A stretch of DNA of 6,623 bases from IMG/VR virus record IMGVR_UViG_3300029181_000086; one strand, written 5' to 3'. The position numbers and the translations under genes are program-made. This DNA comes from a virus (Duplodnaviria > Heunggongvirae > Uroviricota > Caudoviricetes). The notes beneath the pieces are model-generated. The model did no database searches. It was not told the origin of the DNA and worked only from the letters and a program-made list of their open reading frames with translations. Below are positions 360 through 651 of the stretch, piece after piece (the first letter of the stretch is position 1; every line of letters begins with the position of its first letter).

Positions 360-575
360 TCACCGTTCCTTAAAGACGCCGTTCAACATGCCGATCGCCA
401 GGCTTAAATGAGTCGGTGTGAATCCCATCAGCGTTACCGTTTCGCGGTGCTTCTTTAGTACGCTACGGCAAATGTCATCGACGTTTTTATCCGGAAAATG
501 CTGTCTGGCTTTTTTGATTTCAGAATTAGCCTGACGGGCAATGCTGCGAAGGGCGTTTTCTTGCTGAGGTGTCAT
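360..575 (-). CDS. Hypothetical small protein of the phage exo-xis region
   Basis: ORF ending at 360. Preferred start is the ATG at 575 (MTPQQENALRSIARQ..., 71 aa), with a GGGG stretch 11-14 nt upstream. The longer form from ATG 641 adds a Cys-rich, low-complexity N-terminus and starts 10 nt after the upstream stop with no SD. Same orientation and position as the lambda orf60a/63/61 block; family not recognised. Confidence 0.5.
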   Translation of the reverse strand: MTPQQENALRSIARQANSEIKKARQHFPDKNVDDICRSVLKKHRETVTLMGFTPTHLSLAIGMLNGVFKER

Positions 576-651
576 TGAACAAGCCCCATGTCGGCAAGCA
601 TAAGCACACAGAATATGAAGCCCGCTGCCAGAAAAATGCATTCAGTGGTTG

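What the first reader, a model, noticed from the sequence alone, without database searches (positions are those of the whole stretch)
360..641. Unrecognised small leftward gene in the exo-xis block with an ambiguous start
A 71-93 aa ORF sits where lambda carries orf60a/orf63/orf61, genes implicated in host cell-cycle and lysogeny effects, but I cannot assign it to a family. The two candidate starts differ by a Cys-rich 22-aa extension. A terminator-like hairpin follows at 317-339.
Basis: partly seen in the sequence, partly recalled or inferred. Interest (0 to 1): 0.35.

Follow-up and report, generated by a model that had tools for sequence, protein, structure and literature searches.

The report
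Lambda orf61 homologue, start re-placed
The "unrecognised" small gene is the intact version of phage lambda's known orf61; it most likely makes a 71-residue protein, and the Cys-rich "extension" looks like the out-of-frame shadow of a separate, conserved 27-codon hydrophobic mini-gene that nobody has described.

Summary
The ORF is real (93 codons from ATG 641, 71 from ATG 575, minus strand) and so is the hairpin (stem 321-339 plus a T-run).

It is not an unknown family. It is the intact homologue of lambda orf61 (PHROG 303). It sits between orf63 and the TraR-like orf73, and it is 97-100% identical to Orf61 of Stx and other lambdoid phages. Lambda's own copy is shortened by an extra A in an A6 run.

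The start is most likely ATG 575:
- All distant homologues are 69-78 aa and align from that Met.
- A common mosaic variant has the 71-aa ORF with no extension.
- ATG 641 has no Shine-Dalgarno sequence.
- AlphaFold is confident for the 71-aa form (pLDDT 89.5) but not for residues 1-20 of the 93-aa form.
- Polymorphisms in the 22-codon extension are mostly non-synonymous.

Those same polymorphisms are mostly synonymous in another frame. That frame holds a 27-codon hydrophobic ORF (655-572) whose ATGA start and stop overlaps link orf63 to orf61. It is intact in lambda and undescribed in the papers searched.

The hairpin is the previously predicted terminator t2. The biochemical function of Orf61 is still unknown; published deletions point to a pro-lytic role. 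The gene is already known. The re-annotation and the mini-ORF are the only new parts.

The parts
360..575 (-). orf61 proper: 71-aa CDS (ATG 575-573, TGA 362-360), predicted three-helix protein
   Evidence: Distant homologues of 69-78 aa align from this Met. The L004-type variant starts at the same ATG with its own GAGG Shine-Dalgarno and no extension. AF2 gives pLDDT 89.5 and pTM 0.74. Substitutions are 30 syn / 41 non overall and 19/12 for variants seen in >=3 loci, P=2e-5. PGAP calls this 71-aa form.
576..641 (-). 22-codon in-frame upstream extension (Cys-rich), probably not part of the protein
   Evidence: There is no Shine-Dalgarno before ATG 641: the best anti-SD duplex is -3.8 kcal/mol at 13 nt. 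Substitutions in this frame are 8 syn / 18 non, and 1/9 for variants in >=3 loci, mostly at codon position 1. AF2 pLDDT is 44-57 for residues 1-20. The extension is absent from all distant homologues.
572..655 (-). orf27: 27-codon hydrophobic ORF MTTTECIFLAAGFIFCVLMLADMGLVQ; its ATG overlaps the orf63 stop (ATGA) and its stop overlaps the orf61 ATG 575 (ATGA)
   Evidence: The sequence is. The ORF is intact in lambda. The peptide is identical in 193 of 215 loci. There is no indel in 352 loci, and substitutions are 17 syn / 16 non overall and 12/4 for variants in >=3 loci, P=4e-5. It has the highest synonymous count of the five reading frames tested, including two antisense ones. A strong GGGAGG Shine-Dalgarno precedes it in the Dam-upstream variant. 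GRAVY is 1.62.
652..843 (-). orf63 (DUF1382), upstream neighbour
   Evidence: Pfam PF07131 at E=7.9e-32; PHROG 292.
268..363 (-). 31-codon ORF whose GTG (ATG in lambda) overlaps the orf61 stop; it contains the hairpin
   Evidence: A 31-aa peptide in this block is reported from lambda ribosome profiling, according to PMC8614690. Synonymous enrichment is only weak: 15 syn / 25 non, P about 0.05.
311..339 (-). intrinsic-terminator-like hairpin (stem 339-321) plus U-tract (320-311); this is predicted terminator t2
   Evidence: The identical sequence is listed as t2 in lambda and Phi24B, and transcript levels change between orf61 and orf73 (PMC4195576).
510..515 (-). A6 run where lambda carries A7, the frameshift that creates lambda's 61-aa orf61
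   Evidence: Alignment, ORFs, and an inserted A in 26 loci, mostly lambda itself.
43..261 (-). orf73, TraR/DksA-type zinc-finger gene, downstream neighbour
   Evidence: Pfam PF01258 at E=2.8e-9 and PHROG 54.

Best explanation
The ORF is the intact homologue of lambda orf61, a conserved non-essential early gene of the pL operon in lambdoid phages. Here it sits in a DLP12-type defective prophage. The product is most likely the 71-aa protein that starts at ATG 575. It is a small, basic (12 K+R against 7 D+E), soluble three-helix protein.

The 66 bases upstream most likely do not encode a Cys-rich N-terminus. They belong to a separate 27-codon ORF in another frame (655-572) that encodes a hydrophobic, membrane-helix-like peptide.

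The ORFs form a translationally coupled chain: orf63 stop/ATGA/orf27, then orf27 stop/ATGA/orf61, then orf61 stop/GTGA (ATGA in lambda)/31-codon ORF. In this reading, ribosomes finishing one ORF restart on the next, which would explain why orf61's own Shine-Dalgarno is weak. The hairpin plus U-tract inside the 31-codon ORF is an intrinsic terminator (published as predicted t2). It would attenuate transcription into orf73 and ea22 unless transcription is N-antiterminated.

For function I rely on published genetics. Deleting annotated orf61 raises lysogenisation and alters induction, more strongly in Phi24B than in lambda, so the locus is pro-lytic.

I infer, without proof, that Orf61 acts by binding a protein partner rather than as an enzyme. 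I also infer that part of the phenotype assigned to lambda 'orf61' may come from orf27, because that deletion also removes orf27 and lambda's own Orf61 fold is already destroyed by the frameshift.

Shown: identity, synteny, family size, and the frame-specific selection pattern. Inferred: start-codon use, translational coupling, membrane location of orf27, and mode of action.
For: Identity:
- PHROG 303 at E=1.3e-42, and lambda-type PHROG 26061 over aa 1-46.
- Colinear with lambda apart from a 1-nt indel in the A-run.
- 213 phage records match the region.
- Literature on the 93-aa Orf61 and the truncated lambda copy.

Start at ATG 575:
- An exhaustive HMMER search finds about 19 distant homologues (32-65% identity), all 68-89 aa. 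Eighteen of the 19 homologues aligned in A4 begin within 0-3 residues of this Met.
- The profile search finds 417 members, and the 120 best hits listed include many 71-74-aa proteins from Yersinia, Hafnia, Citrobacter and Enterobacter.
- In those genomes the gene starts 0-4 nt after the upstream gene, beside TraR or Xis-Int.
- The L004/P0025 variant (344 member sequences) has a 250-aa gene ending 7 nt before the same ATG.
- AF2 pLDDT is 89.5 for the 71-aa form. It is 75.8 for the 93-aa form, with residues 1-20 at 44-57.
- ATG 641 has no Shine-Dalgarno.

orf27, from 393 loci:
- In the 66-nt overlap, variants seen in >=3 loci are 8 syn / 2 non in the orf27 frame and 1 syn / 9 non in the 93-aa frame (Fisher P=0.005).
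- The whole orf27 is 12 syn / 4 non for such variants (P=4e-5), with 12 of 16 at codon position 3.
- There are no indels in 352 loci.
- The peptide is identical in 193 of 215 loci, while the commonest extension form is found in 79 of 215.
- orf27 beats the antisense ORF 588-773: four discriminating third-position changes are all silent only in orf27.
- 28 loci have their mosaic junction exactly at the orf27 ATG. There a Dam gene ends in the same ATGA, preceded by GGGAGG.

Terminator.

Phenotypes, and the report that over-produced Orf61 formed insoluble aggregates.
Against: - No direct translation data were available. The lambda ribosome-profiling paper is not held, and the review citing it lists only 7- and 31-aa extra peptides, not a 27-aa one.
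- The peptide is absent from the EHEC small-gene and Enterobacteriaceae microproteome supplements that I could search.
- The 93-aa frame stays open, and ATG 641 is kept in nearly all loci.
- One lineage (L009, Escherichia sp. E1V33) has a GGAGG Shine-Dalgarno and an ATG that read directly into the 93-aa frame, while orf27 is disrupted by a 14-nt difference.
- Sequence diversity is low (95-100% identity), so the selection test rests on 33 distinct substitutions. With all singletons included, the two frames do not differ significantly (Fisher P=0.26).
- orf27 is absent from the L004 variant and from all distant homologues, so it is dispensable for Orf61.
- In this window the block is cut off from pL by the deletion at about 960, and no sigma-70-like promoter was found on the minus strand. 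Expression here is therefore doubtful.
Confidence: 0.72

Rival explanations
1. The annotated 93-aa protein is the real product. Translation starts at ATG 641, perhaps by re-initiation 10 nt after the orf63 stop, and the Cys-rich N-terminus is part of Orf61, as the Phi24B literature assumes.
For: - The ORF is open and ATG 641 is present in almost all loci.
- The PHROG 303 profile spans residues 1-93.
- L009 has a Shine-Dalgarno and ATG in this frame.
- The 93-aa form is used in PMC8614690.
Against: - The extension is missing from every distant homologue and from the L004 variant.
- There is no Shine-Dalgarno.
- Substitutions in the extension are 1 syn / 9 non among recurrent variants, mostly at codon position 1.
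- AF2 confidence is low, and published AF and RoseTTAFold models disagree for residues 1-23.
- The N-terminal boundary is inconsistent between phages: the in-frame TGA just upstream is GGA or AGA in many loci.
Confidence: 0.13
2. Orf61 is 71 aa, but orf27 is not a functional peptide gene. The 84 bases would be a spacer or coupling leader whose translation, not its product, matters, or they would be constrained at the RNA or DNA level.
For: - orf27 is absent from the L004 variant and from distant homologues.
- It is not listed among ribosome-profiling ORFs in the review.
- Its Shine-Dalgarno in the window type is weak, at -5.3 kcal/mol.
- It is very short, and there is no family match.
Against: - The synonymous excess and third-position bias are specific to this frame, which a pure spacer or RNA element would not produce.
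- The peptide is identical in 90% of loci even though there are 44 distinct DNA versions of the upstream 130 bases that contain it.
- There are no indels in 352 loci, whereas orf61 itself has several.
- The module boundary falls exactly at its ATG in 28 loci.
Confidence: 0.2
3. The protein is a ZapA-like cell-division protein, as NCBI PGAP names many copies.
For: The source name 'cell division protein ZapA' appears on many 71-aa entries. There is a weak Pfam ZapA hit at E=0.051 over residues 25-57.
Against: - The score is 14.3 bits against a gathering cut-off of 23.8.
- No NCBIfam model matches.
- No PDB sequence or fold match to ZapA appears.
Confidence: 0.03
4. Orf61 is a homeodomain-like DNA-binding regulator, the proposal in PMC8614690.
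For: - The predicted fold is a three-helix bundle.
- The protein is basic.
- A published superposition on PAX3 gives RMSD 1.83 A at 4% identity.
Against: - Foldseek against the PDB finds nothing significant. The best hit has E=1.8 and is a de novo designed helical protein; no homeodomain appears among the 50 hits listed.
- Three-helix bundles are generic.
- The most conserved positions (N7, A13, P28, G62, N65, G66) do not form a recognisable helix-turn-helix signature, though I did not test this formally.
Confidence: 0.2

Closest known systems
Orf61 of lambdoid and Shiga-toxin phages (lambda orf61; Phi24B vb_24B_7c; PHROG 303)
   Same: Same gene. It is 97-100% identical to phage and prophage copies, lies in the same position between orf63 and orf73, and has the same downstream hairpin.
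   Different: Lambda's reference copy is frameshifted (A7 against A6) and starts 10 codons further upstream, because a TGA is GGA there. The literature treats the product as 93 aa, whereas my evidence favours 71 aa. The copy in this window sits in a DLP12-type remnant that is cut off from pL.
Small hydrophobic peptides of bacteria and phages (for example type I toxins such as DinQ, TisB and ShoB, 26-29 aa; named from my own knowledge)
   Same: orf27 has a similar size (27 aa), a single hydrophobic stretch of about 16-19 residues, and a GRAVY of 1.62.
   Different: There is no sequence similarity. orf27 sits inside an operon and is coupled by ATGA overlaps, not a stand-alone gene with an antisense RNA. 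Toxicity and membrane insertion are untested.
Translationally coupled overlapping small genes (ATGA-type stop/start overlaps), common in phage early operons
   Same: There are three consecutive 4-nt stop/start overlaps: 652-655, 572-575 and 360-363. The same overlap is kept when the upstream gene is Dam or another gene.
   Different: Coupling is inferred from sequence only.
Predicted intrinsic terminator t2 of the lambda and Phi24B exo-xis region (Bloch et al. 2014, PMC4195576)
   Same: The hairpin and U-tract sequence is identical.
   Different: Nothing differs. It is not the classical tL3, which I believe is the other hairpin at 912-934 inside orf60a. That belief is from my own knowledge and was not verified here.

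Membership tests
Lambda Orf61 / PHROG 303 | Significant match to the family profile | tested here: met
   phrog_303 at E=1.3e-42, residues 1-93 of 101 profile positions. phrog_26061 (lambda-type) at E=8e-33 over residues 1-46.
Lambda Orf61 / PHROG 303 | Position in the exo-xis block between orf63 (DUF1382) and orf73 (TraR-like) | tested here: met
   with nucleotide colinearity to lambda.
Lambda Orf61 / PHROG 303 | Pro-lytic effect on the lysis-lysogeny decision and on induction | not testable with these tools
   Known only from published deletions in lambda and Phi24B (PMC6213356).
ZapA (PF05164) | Score above the Pfam gathering threshold | tested here: not met
   14.3 bits against a cut-off of 23.8. 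No NCBIfam hit.
ZapA (PF05164) | Structural similarity to solved ZapA | tested here: not met
   ZapA does not appear among the 50 Foldseek PDB hits listed or among the PDB sequence and profile hits.
Homeodomain-like DNA-binding fold | Significant structural match to homeodomain or HTH structures | tested here: not met
   The best Foldseek PDB hit has E=1.8, and there are 0 matches at E<=0.001.
Ankyrin repeat | Significant repeat match | tested here: not met
   phmmer against an ankyrin chain gives E=2.8e-4 for the whole sequence, but no stretch passes on its own. Only the GFTPTHLSLAIG motif resembles G-TPLHLA. With the family profile the hit disappears.
Small membrane peptide (for orf27) | Hydrophobic segment long enough to span a membrane | tested here: inconclusive
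   The Kyte-Doolittle mean is 2.33 over 19 residues and 2.87 over 15. The core CIFLAAGFIFCVLMLA is only 16 residues, flanked by E5 and D22.
Small membrane peptide (for orf27) | Evidence of translation or of the peptide itself | not testable with these tools
   No profiling data were accessible. The sequence is not found in the papers or supplements searched. It exists only as automatic 'hypothetical protein' calls.
Rho-independent terminator | G+C-rich stem-loop immediately followed by a U-tract | tested here: met
   An 8-pair stem with 4 G-C pairs, a 3-nt loop and U6AUUAUU; MFE -10.2 kcal/mol.
Rho-independent terminator | Termination in vivo | not testable with these tools
   Only indirect evidence exists: lambda transcript levels are lower downstream of it (PMC4195576).

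The most novel reading that the evidence does not exclude
Phage lambda and its Shiga-toxin relatives carry an overlooked, selected 27-codon gene (orf27, MTTTECIFLAAGFIFCVLMLADMGLVQ) between orf63 and orf61, and it encodes a small membrane peptide. The published 'Orf61' constructs (93 aa, or lambda's 61 aa) would then be chimeras of an out-of-frame orf27 reading and the true 71-aa Orf61. That would explain their insolubility. It would also mean that the lambda 'orf61' deletion phenotypes are at least partly orf27 phenotypes, since lambda's own Orf61 is frameshifted.
Probability: 0.55. Interest if true: 0.5.

Novelty: already known. Interest (0 to 1): 0.33.

Why it matters
The gene itself is ordinary: a known, conserved, poorly understood lambda early gene. 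The practical value is in the re-annotation.

- **Wrong protein expressed.** If the real product is 71 aa, earlier attempts to express and solve Orf61 used the wrong protein. Its makers report that it aggregated, and the 71-aa form should be tried instead.
- **Confounded mutants.** If orf27 is real, deletion and frameshift mutants of 'orf61' in lambda and Phi24B are confounded. The well-studied lambda genome would also gain one more small gene in the region implicated in lysis-lysogeny control and Shiga-toxin prophage induction.
- **Misleading database name.** The 'cell division protein ZapA' label carried by many database entries is unsupported and could mislead.

Tried and rejected
- **ZapA identity.** The Pfam score is below threshold, and there is no NCBIfam or PDB support.
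- **Homeodomain claim.** Foldseek does not reproduce it at any significant level.
- **Ankyrin-like motif.** The weak single-sequence hit vanishes with the family profile.
- **Long multi-repeat hits in the exhaustive search.** These are WD40 proteins and are spurious.
- **Antisense ORF 588-773.** Its third codon positions coincide with those of orf27, so I tested it as an alternative explanation of the selection pattern. I rejected it because it has fewer silent changes (8 against 12), all four discriminating changes favour orf27, and only its first 22 codons are conserved across mosaic variants.
- **More diverged orf27 next to diverged orf63 paralogues.** Those paralogues are followed directly by other genes and carry no orf27.
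- **L241.** It looked like a 60%-identity homologue but is a G-to-A converted assembly, so I excluded it.
- **Lambda ribosome-profiling paper.** It could not be read.
- **Small-protein catalogues.** The EHEC and Enterobacteriaceae supplements do not contain the peptide.
- **orf63 selection.** An early result that orf63 showed no purifying selection came from the small sample and disappeared with 393 loci.
- **The hairpin as classical tL3.** I rejected this from my own recollection that pKD46 (lambda 31088-33241) already contains tL3. That places tL3 at the other hairpin, 912-934.

Full report
**Observation.** The window has a minus-strand ORF at 360..641. It is 93 aa from ATG 641 and 71 aa from the in-frame ATG 575. 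The 22 extra residues are MHFSGSGLHILCAYACRHGACS, which include three Cys. A terminator-like hairpin lies just downstream on the same strand: stem 339..321, a 3-nt loop, then TTTTATTATT. Its RNA MFE is -10.2 kcal/mol.

**Genomic setting.**
- The window is a DLP12-type defective lambdoid prophage of E. coli.
- Leftward genes are orf73 (TraR/DksA zinc finger, 43-261), a 31-codon ORF (268-363), the target ORF, orf63 (DUF1382, 652-843) and a 5'-truncated orf60a.
- At about 960 this block is fused to the 3' remnant of replication gene P. Rightward come ren, emrE, ylcJ, ybcK, ybcL, ybcM, ybcN and others.
- A near-identical arrangement beside intD is annotated in E. coli EC50.
- The leftward block is therefore cut off from pL. 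No sigma-70-like site was found on the minus strand of the first 1000 bases.

**Identity.**
- The ORF matches PHROG 303 at E=1.3e-42 over its whole length. Its first 46 residues match PHROG 26061, which is lambda-type orf61. There is no Pfam or NCBIfam family.
- Aligned to lambda, the region is colinear at about 97% identity. Lambda has A7 where the window has A6 (510-515), which shifts the frame after codon 46. Lambda also has GGA where the window has an in-frame TGA just upstream of ATG 641. Together these produce lambda's annotated 61-aa orf61.
- The target is therefore the intact form of orf61. A 2021 review already says that lambda Orf61 is truncated relative to the 93-aa Orf61 of Phi24B and 933W (PMC8614690). 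The gene is known.
- 213 phage records match the block, and IMG/VR holds more than 570 copies.

**Which start: evidence from homologues.**
- An exhaustive HMMER search with the 71-aa form found true distant relatives at 32-65% identity. Apart from one 89-aa member, all are 68-78 aa. Eighteen of the 19 homologues aligned in A4 begin within 0-3 residues of the ATG 575 Met. Positions N7 and N65 are invariant, and A13, P28, G62 and G66 are nearly so.
- A profile search found 417 members. The 120 best hits listed include many 71-74-aa proteins from Yersinia, Hafnia, Citrobacter and Enterobacter.
- In those genomes the gene sits in the same kind of place, after a Dam methylase or a ClpX-type zinc-finger gene and before a TraR-like gene or Xis-Int. 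It begins 0-4 nt after the upstream stop, which leaves no room for an extension.
- Within E. coli, a common mosaic variant (P0025, 344 member sequences) has a 250-aa gene in place of orf63. That gene ends 7 nt before the same ATG, and a GAGG Shine-Dalgarno precedes the ATG.

**Which start: evidence from sequence and structure.**
- ATG 641 has no Shine-Dalgarno: the best anti-SD duplex is -3.8 kcal/mol, 13 nt away.
- AlphaFold2 models the 71-aa form with pLDDT 89.5 and pTM 0.74 as three helices.
- Adding the extension lowers the mean pLDDT to 75.8, and residues 1-20 score 44-57. This matches the published disagreement between predictors for residues 1-23.
- NCBI PGAP already calls the 71-aa form.

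**What the 66 upstream bases encode.**
- In another frame there is a 27-codon ORF at 655-572, MTTTECIFLAAGFIFCVLMLADMGLVQ.
- Its ATG overlaps the orf63 stop (ATGA), and its stop overlaps ATG 575 (ATGA). The orf61 stop in turn overlaps the GTG (ATG in lambda) of the 31-codon ORF.

**Polymorphism test of the two frames.**
- I pooled 393 related loci, 352 of which span this stretch, and counted distinct substitutions.
- In the orf27 frame there are 17 synonymous and 16 non-synonymous events. About 25% synonymous is expected, giving P=0.001.
- Among variants seen in at least 3 loci, the count is 12 synonymous to 4 non-synonymous (P=4e-5), and 12 of the 16 are at codon position 3.
- In the 93-aa frame, the same overlap gives 8 to 18 for all events and 1 to 9 for variants in at least 3 loci, mostly at codon position 1.
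- The two frames differ at Fisher P=0.005 for the recurrent variants, but not when singletons are included (P=0.26).
- Control genes behave as expected: orf61 core 19/12, orf73 31/25 and orf63 27/29 for recurrent variants, each with P<=2e-4.

**Other support for orf27.**
- No indel occurs in orf27 in 352 loci. orf61 itself carries the lambda-type +A, a 4-nt deletion and a 1-nt deletion in a minority of loci.
- The orf27 peptide is identical in 193 of 215 loci, whereas the commonest extension sequence is found in 79 of 215.
- Third positions of orf27 coincide with third positions of an antisense ORF (588-773), so I tested that ORF too. It has fewer silent changes (8 against 12), and four discriminating changes are silent only in orf27. 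Only its first 22 codons persist across mosaic variants.
- In 28 loci the mosaic junction falls exactly at the orf27 ATG. There a 185-aa product, whose counterparts at the same position in L231 and L234 carry a Pfam Dam hit, ends in the same ATGA and is preceded by GGGAGG, with an anti-SD duplex of -10.3 kcal/mol.
- The peptide is hydrophobic, with GRAVY 1.62 and a Kyte-Doolittle mean of 2.33 over 19 residues.
- It is encoded at 100% identity in lambda and in 138 phage records, including Stx phages.
- It appears in databases only as sporadic automatic 'hypothetical protein' calls. It is absent from every paper and supplement I could search.

**Counter-evidence.**
- One locus (L009, Escherichia sp. 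E1V33) differs by 14 nt near the junction. There a GGAGG Shine-Dalgarno and an ATG read straight into the 93-aa frame, and orf27 is disrupted. An N-terminally extended Orf61 may therefore be made in that lineage.
- orf27 is missing from the L004 variant and from all distant homologues, so Orf61 does not need it.
- Diversity is low, and I have no translation data. The lambda ribosome-profiling paper is not held, and the review citing it mentions extra peptides of 7 and 31 aa only. I note, as my own inference, that footprints over this stretch would have been credited to annotated orf61 whichever frame was being read.

**Function.**
- Published deletions of annotated orf61 increase lysogenisation, change induction timing and reduce Phi24B adsorption. 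The effects are stronger in Phi24B than in lambda. Over-produced protein formed insoluble aggregates (PMC6213356).
- Those deletions also remove orf27, and lambda's own Orf61 fold is already broken by the frameshift. The weaker lambda phenotype fits a model in which lambda retains only orf27. This is inference.
- Structure comparison gives no mechanistic lead. Foldseek against the PDB finds nothing significant (best E=1.8). The viral library returns only other uncharacterised proteins of about 70 aa.
- The PGAP label 'cell division protein ZapA' is unsupported. The homeodomain proposal is not reproduced at significance.
- I commit, with low confidence, to a small partner-binding regulatory protein.

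**The hairpin.** It is identical to the predicted terminator t2 of lambda and Phi24B. The authors who predicted it report lower transcript levels downstream of it in lambda (PMC4195576). It lies inside the 31-codon ORF.

**Verdict.** The start ambiguity resolves in favour of the 71-aa form (about 0.8). A previously undescribed, selected 27-codon hydrophobic ORF probably occupies the supposed extension (about 0.55-0.6). The gene is already known, so interest is modest and rests on the re-annotation and the mini-ORF.

Noticed in passing
L010-L023 (genome-contig hits): Assemblies labelled Shewanella, Bradyrhizobium, Pseudomonas, Paenibacillus, Kitasatospora, Oceanobacillus and others carry this region with the lambda-specific A7 frameshift. 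Several of the contigs are about 48.4-48.5 kb. This looks like phage lambda spike-in or contamination in public genomes.
   Followed up: partly
window 957-965: This is a deletion junction. A 5'-truncated orf60a (DUF1317) on the minus strand is fused to the 3' remnant of replication gene P on the plus strand (to 1190), followed by ren, emrE, ylcJ and ybcK. The leftward exo-xis genes are thereby cut off from pL.
   Followed up: partly
window 912-934 (minus strand): A second, stronger terminator-like hairpin lies inside the orf60a remnant (9 pairs, 6 of them G-C). It is identical to predicted t1 of Bloch et al. 2014. From my own knowledge it is probably the classical lambda tL3.
   Followed up: no
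window 268-363 (minus strand): A 31-codon ORF has a GTG start (ATG in lambda and 45+ loci) that overlaps the orf61 stop, and it contains the t2 hairpin. A 31-aa peptide here is said to be seen in lambda ribosome profiling. The selection signal is only weak (15 syn / 25 non).
   Followed up: partly
window 575 (A>G in 34 loci): The orf61 start codon is GTG instead of ATG in 34 related loci. The change is silent in the last codon of orf27 (CAA to CAG) and keeps a GTGA overlap.
   Followed up: partly
L241 (Logan SRR23602615): This copy of the orf63-orf61 region has pervasive G-to-A changes, which looks like a bisulfite-converted or similarly converted library. It masquerades as a 60%-identity homologue in protein searches.
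   Followed up: partly
window 360-575 in related loci: orf61 is inactivated in a minority of copies: +A in the A6 run (26 loci, mostly lambda), a 4-nt deletion at 489-492 (3 loci) and a 1-nt deletion at 427 (4 loci). The adjacent orf27 has no indel in 352 loci.
   Followed up: yes
window 399-434 (residues 48-59 of the 71-aa form): The motif GFTPTHLSLAIG resembles the ankyrin-repeat core G-TPLHLA--G and produces weak hits to ankyrins and DARPins. The hits vanish with the family profile, so the resemblance is probably coincidental.
   Followed up: yes
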